Shown here piece after piece: positions 338 to 60,032 of a stretch of DNA of 64,000 nt. The DNA comes from Pelagomonas calceolata. Taxonomy: Eukaryota. The stretch lies in the NCBI GenBank assembly GCA_918797485.1, contig CAKKNE010000002.1, positions 5,332,001 through 5,396,000 of the forward strand, read 5' to 3'. Under the pieces are notes generated by a model. That model searched no databases and was not told where the DNA came from. It worked only from the letters and a program-made list of their open reading frames with translations. Position 1 is the first letter of the stretch. Each line of letters starts with the position of its first letter. The translations under genes and the position numbers were made by a program.

Positions 338-1590
338 ATGCAACGCCTGTGTCTCCTCCTCCCGCTGGCAAGCGCGCTGCTGGCACCCATCTCTCCTGCT
401 GCACGCACCATTGCCGTGCGGCCAAACAGCTACTTGGACGACCTGCCCGCGGCCGCCGCGACGAAACCTGCGCCGGCACCGGTCGCCGCGCCTGCCCCGG
501 CGCCGGCCCCGTCGCCCGTCGCCGCGGCCCCCGCGCCCGCGCCCGCGCCCGCCGCGGCGCCCGCGACGCCGGTCGCCGGCGACGTGCCCGCCGTTATTGT
601 GGGATCCGGCGGCCGCATCGGCGGCATGCTCCTCAAGGACGGCGACGCCGCCTGGACGTCGACGAGCGGCTGGCCCGCCGACGCGCCCAAGGAGGGCCCC
701 ATCTACGTCTGCACGCGCAATGATGCGTTGGAAGGTATCATCGCGGCGACGCCGGAGAATCGGAGAAAGGACCTCTGCTTCCTCCAGAACGGCATGCTGG
801 GACCCTTCTTGGAAGCTCAAGGCCTGCCGGACGCGACGCAGATCCTCATGTACGTCGCGGTCGCCAAAAAAGGTGAAGAACCGACTGATGGTATTACTGA
901 TGCGAACCCCGAGGGCCTGACGACGGCCACGGGCAAGTGGGCGAACGCGTTTCAAGCGAGGCTGGTCAATCACTGTGTGGAAAATTTTACGGCGCGTTCG
1001 TGCTGAATCATCGCGTCGTCCTCCACGCCATCGACGCGACGCCTGCTCGATGGCGTGGCGATGCCGGTTCCTCGCCGCTCGACCGAGCCAGGTCGGCCGC
1101 GTCATCGCCGAGAAATGACTTAGTGAAGAATTGTCGGGTGCACCCGATGCACTGGTTGATTTCCACACAGGTCAATCAGGGCCTCACGTGCCACGTCAAG
1201 GACGGCGACGCCTTCACGATCGCCATGCTCGAGAAGCACGTCTGGATCTGCGCGTTCATGTTAGTCGGCGCTTCTCACGGCGGCTGCACCGTCGGCGAGG
1301 TCGAGTCGACGTACACCAAAGAGTTCGAGGCTCTGGCCAGTGAGATGATGACGGCGGGCGCCGCTGCATTAAATGTGGACGTCGCCGACGGGTACTTGGA
1401 CCGCCTCAAGGCCTACGCGCGCGCGGTTTCGCACTTCCCGACGGCGGTCAAGGAGTTCGAGTGGCGCAACGGCTGGTTCTACAAGCTGACCTGTGACGCG
1501 GTCAAGGCGGGCCGCGAGGACCCCATGCCGCTGCACACGCAGGCGCTCTACGACCTCAAGCTGCCGCTGCCGATCGCGTGGATCAACTAG
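338..1590 (+). CDS. Plastid-targeted At1g16080-like protein (ketopantoate-reductase-like); exons 338-964 and 1171-1590
   Basis: Signal peptide MQRLCLLLPLASA-LL, Pro/Ala linker, then motifs VIVGSGGRIG, IYVCTRND, FLQNGML, TDANPEGLT, LEKHVWICAFMLVGA and HFPTAVKEFEWRNGWFY. The phase-0 GT-AG intron 965-1170 joins the two ORFs in frame. Confidence 0.85.
965..1178 (+). mobile_element. Introner (MITE-like) forming intron 965-1170
   Basis: Perfect 8-bp TSD GTCAATCA at 965-972 and 1171-1178. TIR CTGTGTGGAAA (973) / TTTCCACACAG (ends 1170). The GT donor comes from the TSD and the AG acceptor from the TIR. Confidence 0.92.
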
Positions 1591-7595: not shown

Positions 7596-7994
7596 CGCCG
7601 TCGATTGCACAGCGCTCGCGGAGAGTCAGTGAGGTTGCACTGCACGCACTGGTGCAAGGAATGCAGCACGCGTCGGGCGTCTTAGCGAGGAATTGCAGTA
7701 CGGGTCACAATGAGCAATGCGATAGCAAACGGCAGCAATCGTCGATCGCTACGGCGTGCACTTGCTGCTGATCGCGTGCTTGAACACTAGCAAAACTCAC
7801 TAGGGCCGCAACAACTATCGCAAGGCCGGATTAAGAATCGCGGCGGCGGCCGCGCGGCGACGGCCGATCCCGTACTCGACTCCCTCGTGACGCTGGGCGA
7901 CGACGGCGTCGCTGAGCCACCGGCCGCGGCCGCCGCGCGAGCAAACGTATCGACGAAAAGCTAGTTATAAAAACGGGGGGAGAGCGCGCGCCTA

Positions 7995-53426: not shown

Positions 53427-53656
53427 ACGGCGTCGTAGACCGCGACGAGCAGCAGCTGCGCGTCGCCGCCGGCCTTCTCCCGCAGGCCCGTCGCCGCGAT
53501 GGCTGTTTCCAACGCTTTGCGGTGCCGCCGCACCTCGGAGACGAGCGCCACGGTCCTCGGCGGGTTCTGTGTCTTGTAGGCTGCCGTCTTCAGCGTGGTG
53601 CGGCCGCCGTCGACCGCTTTGAGGCATTTTGCCGCGTCGCGGTAGTGGGACGCCAT
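53427..53656 (-). pseudogene. NSUN5: Truncated 5' copy of NSUN5
   Basis: MASHYRDAAKCLK...VAVYDAV matches the protein start at 57692 (silent changes only), then homology stops and the ORF ends at 53417. Confidence 0.8.
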
Positions 53657-53777
53657 CTGTTCGCTCCGAGGGCCCTAATTGGCGCCGGCCATCGCCGCCC
53701 TGCCGGCGCCTCGGGTTTTCCTGTAACCCGGTACTAGAGGCAAAAAACAAACAAAAAATCAAGAGTCGCATTGATCG

Positions 53778-53961
53778 ACCCACTGGTAGGTAAAGCTACC
53801 GGGTACAGGTCGTAGGATCGAAACCTACAGTTGCAATACAAGCTTCTTGATGCATTCGTAGATGTCTGCTACGAAGTCACAAACTTGGCGCAGCGGTAAA
53901 AGCTCTAACAGGATTTTCTGTCAGCGCGGTGTTCCATTCACGTGGAAACGTTCGGCCCATA
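53778..53961 (+). tRNA. Circularly permuted initiator tRNA-Met(CAT) with four BHB-like introns
   Basis: Pieces in genomic order: nt38-43 53778-53783; nt44-73 53807-53836; nt1-3 53851-53853; nt4-21 53882-53898; nt22-29 53924-53931; nt30-37 53954-53961. Assembled: TGCAACT TG GCGC AGCGGTA GCGC G GTGGG CCCATAA CCCAC AGGTC GTAGG ATCGAAA CCTAC AGTTGCA A. All four stems are fully Watson-Crick; initiator marks G29-31:C39-41, A54 and A60 are present. Confidence 0.88.
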
Positions 53962-53978
53962 CTCGCTAGCGGCTCTTC

Positions 53979-53985
53979 TTTTTTT
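53979..53985 (+). terminator. Pol III oligo(T) terminator of the permuted pre-tRNA
   Basis: T7 run just after the trailer GCGGCTCTT (53969-53977), which pairs with the leader AAGAGTCGC (53761-53769). Confidence 0.75.
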
Positions 53986-54155
53986 GCTCCCTGGGTGCTC
54001 GGACCCTCGGACCGCGCTTTGACGCTGGCTTGGGGCGAGGTAGGACCCCTATGGTGGCTGTACGACCCCACTCCGTCCACGCGCCCCAATTTCATCAAAG
54101 GCAGGATTCCGCGGACGAAACGCACACGGTCAACCGAGGGTCCTATCTTGGGACG
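53986..54155. ncRNA. Candidate structured RNA of unknown family (also at ~57205-57375)
   Basis: Nested helices: GGACCCTCGG 54001-54010 / CCGAGGGTCC 54134-54143; CTTTGA/TCAAAG; TTGGGGCG 54030-54037 / CGCCCCAA 54082-54089. Appears identical in both arms. Confidence 0.35.
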
Positions 54156-54358
54156 CAGAGTGACGTGGGAGGCGTCTAGATCACCCGCCAACGCGAGGAC
54201 AAGCCATGGGGCTAGGCGCACAAGACGAAGGGCCCACCGGCGCGATCGTAAGAAGCAACAACAGTTATATATCTAAGAGCCCGCAGATTCAGCAGCGTCG
54301 AACCGGACCCACAGCCGCCGAGGCACGGCGACCACCGGCGCCGACGCGGGCGACAGAG

Positions 54359-54736
54359 TCACGACGAGCCCGAGGGGGGCGCCGCCGGCTTCCGCGCGCG
54401 CGAGAATTTTTTGCACTGCCGCAGCGCGCGGCCCAGCGGGCTCGGGGAGCCCTGCTCGGCGCCCGCGCCGTCGTCGCCCCCGGCCGCCGGCGTCGTCGTC
54501 GCGCCCGCGCTGTTCGCGCGGGTGGCGTCGACGCCGCCGGATGTTGAAGACGACGACGACGAGCCGCTCCGCTCACAGGCCTCGTCGGCGACGCCCGTCG
54601 GCGACGACGATGACGTCTCGGCAGCCTTCGGTTGTCGCACGACGCGCGATTGCTGCTCTCCGCTTGGCTGCTCCGCCTTGTCCGTCACACGAGGCGCATT
54701 GCTGGCAGCTTTTTTCGCCTTGCGGAAGAATGACAT
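54359..54736 (-). CDS. Hypothetical low-complexity protein
   Basis: ATG-start 125-aa ORF, Ser/Ala-rich. Its 3' end runs into the duplication arm. Confidence 0.3.
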   Translation of the reverse strand: MSFFRKAKKAASNAPRVTDKAEQPSGEQQSRVVRQPKAAETSSSSPTGVADEACERSGSSSSSSTSGGVDATRANSAGATTTPAAGGDDGAGAEQGSPSPLGRALRQCKKFSRARKPAAPPSGSS

Positions 54737-56948: not shown

Positions 56949-57921
56949 GCAAAAAATTCTCGCGCGCGCGGAAGCCGGCGGCGCCCCCCTCGGGCTCGTC
57001 GTGACTTTGTCGCCCGCTCCGGCGCTGGTGGTTGCCGCGCCTCGGCGGCCTTGGGTTCGGCTCGACGCTGCTGATTCTGCGGCTCTTAGATATATAACTG
57101 TTGTTGCTTTTACGATCGCGCCGGTGGGCCCTTCGTCTTGTGCGCCTAGCCCCATGGCTTGTCCTCGCGTTGGCGGGTGATCTAGACGCCTCCCACGTCA
57201 CTCTGCGTCCCAAGATAGGACCCTCGGTTGACCGTGTGCGTTTCGTCCGCGGAATCCTGCCTTTGATGAAATTGGGGCGCGTGGACGGAGTGGGGTCGTA
57301 CAGCCACCATAGGGGTCCTACCTCGCCCCAAGCCAGCGTCAAAGCGCGGTCCGAGGGTCCGAGCACCCAGGGAGCAAAAAAAGAAGAGCCGCTAGCGAGT
57401 ATGGGCCGAACGTTTCCACGTGAATGGAACACCGCGCTGACAGAAAATCCTGTTAGAGCTTTTACCGCTGCGCCAAGTTTGTGACTTCGTAGCGCACACA
57501 TTCCATAAAAGCTTGTATTGCAACTGTAGGTTTCGATCCTACGACCTGTACCCGGTAGCTTTACCTACCAGTGGGTCGATCAATGCGACTCTTGATTTTT
57601 TGTTTGTTTTTTGCCTCTAGTACCGGGTTACAGGAAAACCCGAGGCGCGGCGGCGATGGCCGGCGCCAATTAGGGCCCTCGGAGCGAACAGATGGCGTCC
57701 CACTACCGCGACGCGGCAAAATGCCTCAAAGCGGTCGACGGCGGCCGCACCACGCTGAAGACGGCAGCCTACAAGACGCAGAACCCGCCGAGGACCGTGG
57801 CGCTCGTCTCCGAGGTGCGCCGGCATCGCAAGGCGTTGGAAACGGCCATCGCGGCGACGGGCCTGCGGGAGAAGGCCGGCGGCGACGCGCAGCTGCTGCT
57901 CGTGGCGGTCTACGACGCCGT
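56949..57921. repeat. Right arm of the inverted duplication
   Basis: Reverse complement of 53427-54414 with scattered substitutions/indels and one replaced patch at ~57494-57510. Confidence 0.92.
57400..57576 (-). tRNA. Second copy of the permuted tRNA-iMet; spacer and 3/4-intron region altered, possibly non-functional
   Basis: Pieces nt38-43 57576-57571, nt44-73 57547-57518, nt4-21 57479-57463, nt22-29 57437-57430 and nt30-37 57407-57400 are identical to copy 1. TTCTTGATGCATTCGTAGATGTCT is replaced by TTTTATGGAATGTGTGC. Confidence 0.65.
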
Positions 57922-59000
57922 CGCCGGCCGCGGCGCGCCGAAGCGCTGCGGCGGCAAGCTGCTGCGCGCGATCCGGGAGGTGTTGTGCGGCGCGCAAATC
58001 AACCAATCGTCGCGGCGATGGCGTGCTGGTGGCGGATTCGAGAGGTGGTGAGAGTCAGCGCGGTGATACGAGACGCGCGCAGGCGCTGCCCGCGCTCAAG
58101 AGCACCTTCGAGGCCGCGCGCACGGAGTCGCCTTCAAGAACCGAAAACAAACCGCGCTACCTGCGCTGCAACCTGTTGACGACGACACGAAAAGAAGTGA
58201 GGGAGAAGCTCGCGGCCGAGGGCGTCGCCGCGGAGGACGACGTGCATGTCGACGACCTCCTCGTCACGACCGCCAAGGTCCACGGCGGCCACGCCCTGGT
58301 CAAGGCCGGCGAGGTCATCCTGCAGGACAAGTCGAGCTGCTTCCCCGCGCACGCGCTCTTAGACGGCCTGCCGCCGGACTGGCGTGGCGATGTTGTGGAT
58401 GCGTGCGCCGCGCCGGGCAACAAGTCGACGCACGCCGCGGCATTACTACGGGGCCGCGGCAAGGTGTTGGCCGTCGACCGCGACGCGGCGCGGCTGAAGA
58501 TCCTCGAGGAGCGCGTGCGCGAGGCGAAGGCCGATAATGTGGTCCAAGCGGTCCGGGGCGACTTTTTAAAGTTGCGCCACGGCGGCGCGCGGGCGATCCT
58601 CGTGGACCCGTCGTGCTCGGGCGGGTTCGAGGGCGAGGCGGCGTCGGACGAGCGCGTGGCGCGGCTCGCCGAGTTCCAGAGCAAAGCATTACGAGCTGCG
58701 CTGATGCGGTTCCCGCGCGCCGAGCGCGTGTCCTACTCGACGTGCTCGCTGCGCGCCGAAGAGGACGAGGCCGTCGTGGCCGGCGCGCTCGCGGACGCGG
58801 ACATAAGGAAGGGCGGCTGGCGCCTCGCGCCGGCGCTGCCGGCGTGGCCGCGGCGCGGCCGGCCCCACGCGGGCCTGGATCGGGCGCAGAGCGACTGCCT
58901 CGCGCGCGCCGATCCATCAAAGGACGCGACGGGCGCGTTCTTCGTCGCGCTCTTCGAGCGGTCCGCCGGTGCGGCGCGGAAGCGGCGGCGGCGGGGGTAA
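57692..59000 (+). CDS. NSUN5: NSUN5/Rcm1-like LSU rRNA cytosine-C5 methyltransferase; exons 57692-57979 and 58083-59000
   Basis: PRYLRCNLL, ILQDKSSCFPA, DACAAPGNKSTH, ILVDPSCSG, YSTCS..EEDE.VV, FFVALFER. Phase-0 GT-AG intron 57980-58082. Confidence 0.88.
57980..58082 (+). mobile_element. Degenerate introner-like intron in NSUN5
   Basis: Eight nt after the GT donor lies CGGCGCGCAAATCAACCA, resembling the TIR CTGTGYGGAAATCAACCA. Ends GCGCGCAG|GC. Confidence 0.6.
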
Positions 59001-59396
59001 TGTGCTTGTGTTGTAGCCTTCGTTCCGGGCCGCGGCGGCGGCGTAGAGCGAAATAAAACCCGCGCTAGTATGTTACTGACGCTAGTTACAAAATTGAGCG
59101 CGAGTCGAAAAAGAGGACAGCGCAGCGCTCGGCGAGGCGCGAGCTGCAAGCGAGAAGCACAGGCAAGTCCCAGCGTCGAAGCCACGGAATCCTGCGCCGC
59201 AAGCGCCGCAGCGCGCGAGGCGGAGACAGCGAAGATAAAAAAGAGAGGCCCAAAACTCGCCTTTCACCTACAGCCCGCCGCGCCGCGCCGCGCGCACCAC
59301 GAGAGAACCCCAAGAACGCCACGCAACCCATCACGCCCGAAACGCCGTAGGTCATCGAGCAAGGAAAGCCGGCGGGCGTCGACGCTTTCAGCAACC

Positions 59397-60032
59397 ATGG
59401 AGATGCCCGAGTTTAAGTTGATCCTCGTCGGCGACGGCGGCGTCGGCAAGACGACCTTCGTCAAAAGACATCTCACTGGAGAATTTGAAAAGAAGTACGT
59501 GGCCACGCTGGGCGTGGAAGTTCACCCTTTGGTCTTTCACACGAACCGCGGCCCCATCAAATTCAATGTCTGGGACACGGCGGGCCAGGAGCGCTTCGGC
59601 GGTCTTCGGGACGGCTACTACATCCAGGGGCAATGTGCTATTGTGATGTTCGACGTCACGTCGCGCATCACCTACAAGAACGTGCCGAACTGGCACCGCG
59701 ACCTGACGCGCGTCTGCGAGAACATTCCTATTGTTTTGACGGGCAACAAAGTAGAAATCAAAGACCGCAAGGTCAAGGCCAAGCAGATCACGTTCCACCG
59801 CAAAAAAAATCTCCAGTACTACGACATCAGTGCCAAGTCGAACTATAACTTCGAGAAGCCCTTCCTCTGGCTCGCGCGCAAATTGTGCGGCGACAACAAC
59901 CTCCACTTCGTCGAGGCGCCGGCCCTCGCGCCGCCCGAGTTCAACATCGACGCCGCGGACGCGGCGCGCTATGAAGCTGAATTGCGCGAAGCCGCCAACA
60001 TCCCGCTGCCGGAAGACGACGACGACCTATAG
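59397..60032 (+). CDS. RAN: Ran GTPase
   Basis: [53 protein letters not shown] and the acidic EDDDDL tail. Confidence 0.97.

What the first reader, a model, noticed from the sequence alone, without database searches (positions are those of the whole stretch)
53761..53985. Circularly permuted initiator tRNA-Met gene in six pieces with four non-canonical introns
Seen: the 3' half (nt38-73) precedes the 5' half (nt1-37), separated by a 14-nt spacer (53837-53850). Removing inserts of 23, 28, 25 and 22 nt at 43/44, 3/4, 21/22 and 29/30 gives a 72-nt cloverleaf with 7+4+5+5 perfect pairs, a CAT anticodon, three consecutive G-C anticodon-stem pairs and the initiator T-loop ATCGAAA. Leader and trailer form a 9-bp helix (AAGAGTCGC/GCGGCTCTT) that brings the 37/38 junction together, followed by T7. 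Known: permuted tRNAs maturing through a circular intermediate occur in Cyanidioschyzon merolae, some prasinophytes, a chlorarachniophyte nucleomorph and Thermofilum pendens. Inference: I know of no permuted, four-intron tRNA from a stramenopile (needs a literature check). It implies five splicing-type events plus RNase P/Z opening, and standard tRNA finders would probably miss it.
Basis: partly seen in the sequence, partly recalled or inferred. Interest (0 to 1): 0.95.

Follow-up and report, generated by a model that had tools for sequence, protein, structure and literature searches.

The report
Permuted methionine tRNA with four introns
In what is likely a marine pelagophyte alga, a methionine tRNA gene is written back to front and cut by four short inserts shaped like tRNA-splicing signals, so it would need five cut-and-join steps to give a working, likely initiator, tRNA, more than any tRNA gene I found described.

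Summary
Observation confirmed. The 3' half (nt 38-73) precedes the 5' half (nt 1-37). Removing inserts at 3/4, 21/22, 29/30 and 43/44 gives a 72-nt tRNA-Met(CAT) with 21 of 21 Watson-Crick stem pairs, which ARAGORN accepts. ARAGORN and Rfam miss the raw gene. None of 500 shuffles came near its score.

New here: three inserts form exact bulge-helix-bulge-type splice geometry (central helix 4 of 4) and the fourth a relaxed one. A second copy lies in an inverted 1-kb duplication beside an NSUN5 gene. It is identical except for a garbled patch at the 3/4 intron.

Caveats: the 1:72 pair is U-A, not the initiator's A-U. The 37/38 junction has a weak central helix. Poly(A) reads gave one unspliced read and no spliced evidence. 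No relatives were found. Host is likely a pelagophyte (Ran 97.6% to Aureococcus).

The papers I read give at most three introns per tRNA gene, at most one in a permuted gene, no permuted tRNA in stramenopiles, and 3/4 introns only in Thermoproteales. New variant of a known kind; processing untested.

The parts
53742..53760 (+). A-rich upstream tract, candidate promoter/start region for RNA polymerase III; no TATA box seen (role inferred)
   Evidence: sequence; AT-rich upstream regions are described for algal permuted genes (PMC3978253 section 5)
53761..53777 (+). 5' leader; first 9 nt pair with the trailer
53778..53783 (+). tRNA nt 38-43 (3' anticodon stem); nt 38-41 also form the central helix of the 43/44 splice motif
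53784..53806 (+). 23-nt intron at 43/44: 3-nt bulges, central helix 4/4, inner helix 5 bp; isolated MFE fold equals the drawn motif, -11.5 kcal/mol
53807..53836 (+). tRNA nt 44-73: variable loop, T-arm with A54 and A60, 3' acceptor strand, discriminator A73; holds the B box, upstream of the A box
53837..53850 (+). 14-nt intervening spacer closing the acceptor stem; its last three bases form part of the central helix of the 3/4 motif
53851..53853 (+). tRNA nt 1-3, a three-base exon (U1, G2, C3)
53854..53881 (+). 28-nt intron at 3/4 in the acceptor stem: central helix 4/4, inner helix 7 bp; isolated MFE fold equals the drawn motif, -8.3 kcal/mol
53882..53898 (+). tRNA nt 4-21 (no position 17); holds the intact A box at 53886-53896
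53899..53923 (+). 25-nt intron at 21/22: central helix 4/4 (two G-U), inner helix 3 bp, unstable in isolation (+3.1 kcal/mol as drawn); holds a T4 run at 53914-53917
53924..53931 (+). tRNA nt 22-29
53932..53953 (+). 22-nt intron at 29/30 in the anticodon stem: relaxed motif, central helix 3/4, not above chance on its own (P about 0.1-0.27)
53954..53961 (+). tRNA nt 30-37 with anticodon CAT and A37
53962..53977 (+). 3' trailer; 53969-53977 pairs with the leader
53979..53985 (+). T7 run, likely RNA polymerase III terminator
57376..57593 (-). second copy of the whole gene; differs only in a patch matching 53845-53867 (end of spacer, nt 1-3, first half of the 3/4 intron), 7 nt shorter, with no full 3/4 splice motif; head-to-head with a full-length NSUN5-like gene
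53427..54414 (.). left arm of a 988-column inverted duplication (96.6% identical to 57921-56949) that carries the tRNA gene and a 5' fragment of the NSUN5-like gene

Best explanation
This is a circularly permuted (37/38) methionine tRNA gene, split into six pieces by four non-canonical inserts, that is likely a working gene whose transcript would be matured by a shape-reading tRNA splicing endonuclease into a likely initiator tRNA-Met. Shown: the anatomy, the cloverleaf product, the splice-motif geometry and the T7 end. Inferred steps: (1) polymerase III makes one transcript of about 225 nt, probably from upstream signals, because the B box lies before the A box. (2) The endonuclease and ligase remove the four inserts at their bulge-helix-bulge-type motifs. 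(3) Order is constrained by the sequence. The 43/44 motif borrows nt 38-41, so it must go before the anticodon stem can form. The 3/4 motif borrows the last three spacer bases, so it must go before the spacer is cut off. (4) The 37/38 junction, held by the leader/trailer helix, is cut and joined last, as reported for C. merolae, giving a circle with the spacer as acceptor loop. (5) RNase P and tRNase Z open the circle and CCA is added.
For: 21 of 21 Watson-Crick stem pairs and an ARAGORN tRNA-Met call after joining. Score 68-74 bits against at most 48 elsewhere in permuted order and in 500 shuffles; in unpermuted order the locus scores only 35-46. A blind profile alignment allowed three inserts recovers lengths 23, 25 and 22 and a 42-nt gap (spacer plus 28), at registers shifted by 2-5 nt. 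Of 18,096 register combinations only one has both 21/21 pairs and the top motif sum, 15 of 16. The 3/4 and 43/44 motifs are their own MFE folds, and the circular intermediate folds as a cloverleaf. CAT anticodon, G29-G31:C39-C41, A54, A60 and C3:G70 match the initiator hallmarks in PMC3950347. The pathway is documented for C. merolae and green algae (PMC3728597, PMC3978253).
Against: No direct expression evidence: of 60 reads laid from four poly(A) runs of one sample (6-12% of each run read), one covers the gene, is unspliced and has its first mate on the + strand, and no joint was listed. Poly(A) libraries are a poor test. The 37/38 junction has only 2 of 4 central pairs and no adjoining outer helix. 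After removing all four inserts, the linear precursor's MFE fold does not form the anticodon stem. The 29/30 motif is not above chance alone. In the whole transcript the 21/22 and 29/30 central helices have pairing probability of at most 0.05. U1:A72 departs from A1:U72, which yeast needs for wild-type initiator function. The copy beside the full-length NSUN5-like gene lacks the 3/4 motif. No homologue was found to test conservation. I could not check whether the genome holds an ordinary iMet gene.
Confidence: 0.82

Rival explanations
1. The gene is permuted with three introns only. The 28-nt '3/4 intron' is part of a 45-nt spacer: RNase P cuts three bases before nt 4 and a Thg1-like 5'-editing enzyme rebuilds nt 1-3 from the 3' strand, as recalled for protist mitochondria.
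For: The second copy keeps every other part intact but has lost the 3/4 motif. A three-base exon carries little information. 5' editing of positions 1-3 is recalled, not read here.
Against: In copy 1 the three bases that complete the acceptor stem sit exactly in the bulge of a perfect motif (central 4/4, inner 7 bp; 0 of 20,000 shuffles), which is also its MFE fold. The 3/4 position is a known intron site in Thermoproteales (PMC4090602).
Confidence: 0.07
2. The gene is a non-functional or decaying relic, and an ordinary tRNA-iMet elsewhere in the genome does the work.
For: U1:A72; weak 37/38 junction; no spliced reads; one of the two copies looks damaged; tRNAscan-SE finds 123 tRNAs in an Aureococcus assembly (PMC11237714), so ordinary genes are not rare in the class.
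Against: No mismatch in 21 stem pairs and all other initiator hallmarks intact. The two copies are identical over 53706-54251 outside one patch, while the outer flanks carry scattered substitutions.
Confidence: 0.07
3. The product is processed as proposed but serves as an elongator or dual-use tRNA-Met and not as the dedicated initiator.
For: A1:U72 is missing, and it supports eIF2 binding (PMC3950347).
Against: A54, A60, three G-C anticodon pairs and C3:G70 are present, all described as initiator signatures.
Confidence: 0.08

Closest known systems
Type II (37/38) circularly permuted tRNA-iMet genes of Micromonas pusilla and Micromonas sp. RCC299 (table 1 of PMC3978253)
   Same: Same isotype, same 37/38 junction, short spacer (47 and 12 nt there, 14 here).
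   Different: Those carry no intron and lie in green algae. This one carries four and lies in a likely stramenopile.
Intronic and permuted nuclear tRNA genes of Cyanidioschyzon merolae (PMC3728597; PMC3978253)
   Same: Permutation combined with non-canonical BHB introns; weak or 'no H' motifs at 37/38, processed last; inverted A and B boxes; T-stretch end.
   Different: There a permuted gene has at most one intron and any gene at most three. The listed intron sites are 37/38, D-stem, D-loop, variable arm, T-stem and T-loop, with none in the acceptor or anticodon stem. Its permuted iMet is type III (50/51) without an intron.
Multi-intron tRNA genes of Thermoproteales and the permuted iMet of Thermofilum pendens (PMC4090602; PMC8450103)
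   Same: Introns at 3/4 and 29/30 are listed for archaea; closely spaced motifs need ordered removal.
   Different: Archaeal genes have up to three introns. T. pendens iMet is permuted at 59/60 with one intron. This gene is eukaryotic and nuclear.
Non-canonical tRNA introns of the Guillardia theta nucleomorph and Chondrus crispus
   Same: Eukaryotic tRNA introns outside 37/38.
   Different: Up to three (G. theta) or two (Chondrus) introns; Chondrus is said to lack permuted genes.

Membership tests
Circularly permuted tRNA genes, type II | 3' half encoded upstream of the 5' half, joined by a short spacer | tested here: met
Circularly permuted tRNA genes, type II | Junction at 37/38 | tested here: met
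   5' half ends at A37 (53961), 3' half starts at A38 (53778)
Circularly permuted tRNA genes, type II | Leader and trailer form a BHB-like motif at the junction | tested here: inconclusive
   9-bp leader/trailer helix is stable, but the central helix is 2 of 4; 'no H' motifs at 37/38 are described in C. merolae
Circularly permuted tRNA genes, type II | One transcription unit ending in a T-stretch | tested here: met
   T7 at 53979-53985; sequence only; a T4 run lies inside the 21/22 intron
Circularly permuted tRNA genes, type II | Circular intermediate and mature tRNA in the cell | tested here: inconclusive
   one unspliced read among 60 laid from poly(A) runs; no joints
BHB-type non-canonical tRNA introns | Two 3-nt bulges around a 4-bp central helix, cuts after the second bulge base | tested here: met
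   met in the relaxed form with an inner but little or no outer helix for 3 of 4 introns; the fourth (29/30) has 3 of 4 central pairs
BHB-type non-canonical tRNA introns | Removal restores a canonical cloverleaf | tested here: met
   21 of 21 pairs; ARAGORN call
BHB-type non-canonical tRNA introns | Excision by the tRNA splicing endonuclease | not testable with these tools
   needs RT-PCR or an in vitro assay; the host's endonuclease subunits were not examined
Eukaryotic initiator tRNA-Met | CAU anticodon and three G-C pairs 29-31:39-41 | tested here: met
   feature list from PMC3950347
Eukaryotic initiator tRNA-Met | A54 and A60 in the T-loop; C3:G70 | tested here: met
Eukaryotic initiator tRNA-Met | A1:U72 pair | tested here: not met
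   U1:A72. By eye, an alternative first exon starting with A in the spacer would mismatch A72 and loses the 3/4 motif. I therefore call it initiator-like and do not file it as a canonical member.

The most novel reading that the evidence does not exclude
This is the most fragmented single-locus tRNA gene known: permuted, four introns, a three-base first exon, an acceptor-stem intron whose splice helix is built from the permutation spacer, and an inverted U1:A72 initiator pair. It would mean that an abundant stramenopile lineage has a shape-reading tRNA splicing system like that of Crenarchaeota and C. merolae, and that much of its tRNA set is hidden from standard annotation.
Probability: 0.6. 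Interest if true: 0.9.

Novelty: new variant of a known kind. Interest (0 to 1): 0.82.

Why it matters
If it is expressed as predicted, it raises the reported ceiling of tRNA gene disruption from three introns (one in permuted genes) to four plus permutation. It extends permuted tRNAs to a new eukaryotic supergroup without a nucleomorph. It places an intron in the acceptor stem of a eukaryotic tRNA, where a mature-domain ruler cannot explain the cut. Algae of this class are cultured, so the order of processing, the endonuclease make-up and the tolerance of eIF2 for U1:A72 are directly testable. It also bears on whether such genes come from red-algal endosymbiont transfer, old ancestry or repeated invention, and warns that tRNA counts in these genomes may be incomplete.

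Tried and rejected
ARAGORN on the window: 0 genes; with introns and a lowered threshold, 5 calls, none at the locus. Rfam: 6 weak matches near the locus, none a tRNA; 0 at gathering score in the window. No whole genome is held, so the search for an ordinary iMet gene could not be run.

Relatives: a T-arm-then-D-arm pattern gave 86 metagenome loci and, in a shorter form, 34 viral loci. 0 of these 120 is a permuted gene; they are tandem ordinary tRNAs or chance matches without a T-stem. The known Micromonas genes did not appear either, so these collections are a weak test. Exact 3'-half patterns gave 0 hits in viral and prokaryotic contigs. Synteny through NSUN5 gave no relative in viral contigs and 3 prokaryotic loci.

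The next-best profile sites (about 62841, 7860-7970, 14164) show no tRNA by eye. The Ran tree gave no well-supported pelagophyte clade, so the host rests on identity. Registers 4/5, 20/21, 41/42 and 42/43 give the same product but lose the central helix. The bacterial promoter scan was uninformative. Earlier scan notes hold nothing for this genome or sequence.

Full report
Observation. Slicing the six pieces and joining them in tRNA order gives 72 nt, which ARAGORN calls tRNA-Met(cat) without a pseudogene flag. The stems have 7+4+5+5 Watson-Crick pairs and the MFE fold is the cloverleaf at -26.7 kcal/mol. A first join with boundaries off by one base was not recognised.

Chance. I built a sequence-only profile from 38 unrelated 72-nt initiator-type tRNA-Met sequences taken from metagenome loci (14 sequences of 73 nt and one with incomplete letters were left out). 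I searched the window allowing the 37/38 permutation, a free spacer and up to four inserts of 11-40 nt. The locus scores 68.1 bits (74.5 with acceptor columns neutral). The best other site, second copy apart, scores 48.4 (48.5). 0 of 500 dinucleotide shuffles of the 280-nt region reach it (means 22 and 28, maxima 42.3 and 47.7). In unpermuted order the locus scores 35.1 (45.6), which is no better than background. A blind traceback with three inserts finds lengths 23, 25 and 22 and a 42-nt gap, though at registers shifted by 2-5 nt; with four or five inserts it overfits.

Splice motifs, an independent line. I tested each insert for bulge-helix-bulge geometry (cut after the second base of a 3-nt bulge, 4-bp central helix). 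The central helix is 4 of 4 at 3/4, 21/22 and 43/44, with inner helices of 7, 3 and 5 bp. Shuffled introns reach this in 0, 22 and 1 of 20,000 trials. Slides that give the same product (4/5, 20/21, 41/42, 42/43) keep only 1-2 central pairs. The outer helix is 0-1 bp, so these are the relaxed HBh' form. The 29/30 insert has 3 of 4 pairs and is not significant alone (P 0.10-0.27). The 3/4 and 43/44 motifs are their own MFE folds (-8.3 and -11.5 kcal/mol); the 21/22 motif is not stable alone (+3.1). The 37/38 junction is weak: 2 of 4 central pairs, with 7-8 unpaired bases before the 9-bp leader/trailer helix. The intron-free linear precursor does not fold the anticodon stem in its MFE structure, whereas the circular intermediate folds as a cloverleaf.

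How it likely works. Shown: anatomy, product, motifs, T7. [quoted passage not shown] This is the pathway described for algal permuted tRNAs (PMC3978253 section 6). The sequence constrains the order. The 43/44 central helix uses nt 38-41, which later pair in the anticodon stem. The 3/4 central helix uses the last three spacer bases plus U1, so that intron must go before the spacer. The 37/38 site is reported as the last substrate in C. merolae (PMC3728597 passages), which fits a weak junction read only once the tRNA body has formed. The B box lies upstream of the A box, and an A-rich tract precedes the gene, as described for such genes (PMC3978253 section 5).

Identity. CAT, G29-G31:C39-C41, A54, A60 and C3:G70 are present; A1:U72 is replaced by U1:A72. 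PMC3950347 (passages) lists these as initiator signatures and says A1:U72 is needed for wild-type function in yeast. I call the product initiator-like.

Second copy. The gene lies in a 988-column inverted duplication, 53427-54414 against 57921-56949, 96.6% identical. Copy 2 (57593-57376, minus) is identical over 53706-54251 except for a patch at 53845-53867: 13 differences in a global alignment, or seven single-base gaps and two substitutions by BLAST. It has no full 3/4 motif in any register. It lies head-to-head with a full-length NSUN5-like methyltransferase gene (Pfam RsmB/F E 6e-18; NSUN5_N E 8e-6, just under its cut-off), while copy 1 faces a 5' fragment of it. Scattered single-base losses in a hairpin look to me like a long-read consensus error (inference, about 60%); decay is the alternative, and this is untested.

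Expression. Four poly(A) raw-read runs of one sample, 6-12% of each read, laid 60 reads on 53560-54160. Nearly all lie left of about 53700, on the NSUN5 5' end; 56 of 58 covering 53570 carry the copy-2 base. One read spans about 53753-53903 unspliced. No joints were listed. This neither supports nor refutes processing.

Host. The Ran protein at 59391-60029 is 97.6% identical to Aureococcus anophagefferens Ran, 95% to Aureoumbra and Chrysophaeum, and 85-93% to diatom, brown-algal and other ochrophyte Ran. The tree did not resolve a supported clade. A pelagophyte nucleus is the likely source.

Relatives. None was found: 0 of 120 pattern loci is permuted, exact patterns gave 0 hits, and NSUN5 synteny gave no eukaryotic locus. 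Conservation is therefore untested.

Literature. Ten full-text searches listed no paper on permuted or non-canonical-intron tRNAs in pelagophytes or other stramenopiles; I saw the top 9-30 rows where there were more. Table 1 of PMC3978253 lists permuted genes in C. merolae, Ostreococcus, Micromonas, the B. natans nucleomorph and T. pendens, each with at most one intron (passages). PMC3728597, PMC8450103 and PMC4090602 give three introns as the most (passages), and PMC4090602 names 3/4 as an extreme case in Thermoproteales. The 2026 review PMC13578239 and PMC4033280 name the same lineages (passages). PlantRNA 2.0 annotated two heterokonts and reports permuted genes only for C. merolae (passages). 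The main texts of two pelagophyte genome papers hold no occurrence of 'tRNA' (PMC9481584, 10.1101/2024.10.30.620910; term searches). PMC11237714 reports 123 tRNAs in an Aureococcus assembly (passages). PMC10328945 and PMC11528492 were not relevant (passages). I did not see Maruyama et al. 2010 or Soma et al. 2007 except through reviews, nor any supplement or tRNA database, and these could hold a pelagophyte entry.

Verdict. A real, very well-formed permuted tRNA-Met gene with four non-canonical introns: a new and extreme variant of a known kind, in a lineage where I found none described. Function is inferred from sequence alone.

Noticed in passing
window 53427-54414 and 56949-57921: Inverted 1-kb duplication with about 2.5 kb between the arms; the left arm ends inside a 5' fragment of the NSUN5-like gene (start codon at 53656, minus strand), and poly(A) reads carry the base of the full-length copy.
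   Followed up: partly
window about 57490-57510 (minus): Garbled patch in the second tRNA copy that removes the 3/4 splice motif; assembly error or decay, untested.
   Followed up: partly
window 57692-59000 (+): The NSUN5-like gene lies in two reading frames (57692-58051 and 57759-59000), which suggests a short intron or a frameshift near 57950-58100.
   Followed up: no
window 53601: About a fifth of the poly(A) reads show G where both copies have C; probably an allele or strain difference.
   Followed up: no
window 53713-53731: A small GC-rich inverted repeat just upstream of the A-rich tract, present in both copies, between the divergent NSUN5 and tRNA starts.
   Followed up: no
L081, L098, L012, L057 and many other metagenome and viral loci: Tandem arrays of initiator-type tRNA-Met genes (seven in L081 at a 119-base period), also found in viral contigs, some labelled GVMAG; many sit beside tRNAs that ARAGORN calls only with long inserts.
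   Followed up: no
L009 about 495-515 (minus) and L019 upstream of the match: A tRNA-Met copy with a short insert between the D-arm and the anticodon stem, a possible non-canonical intron in a probably viral tRNA.
   Followed up: no
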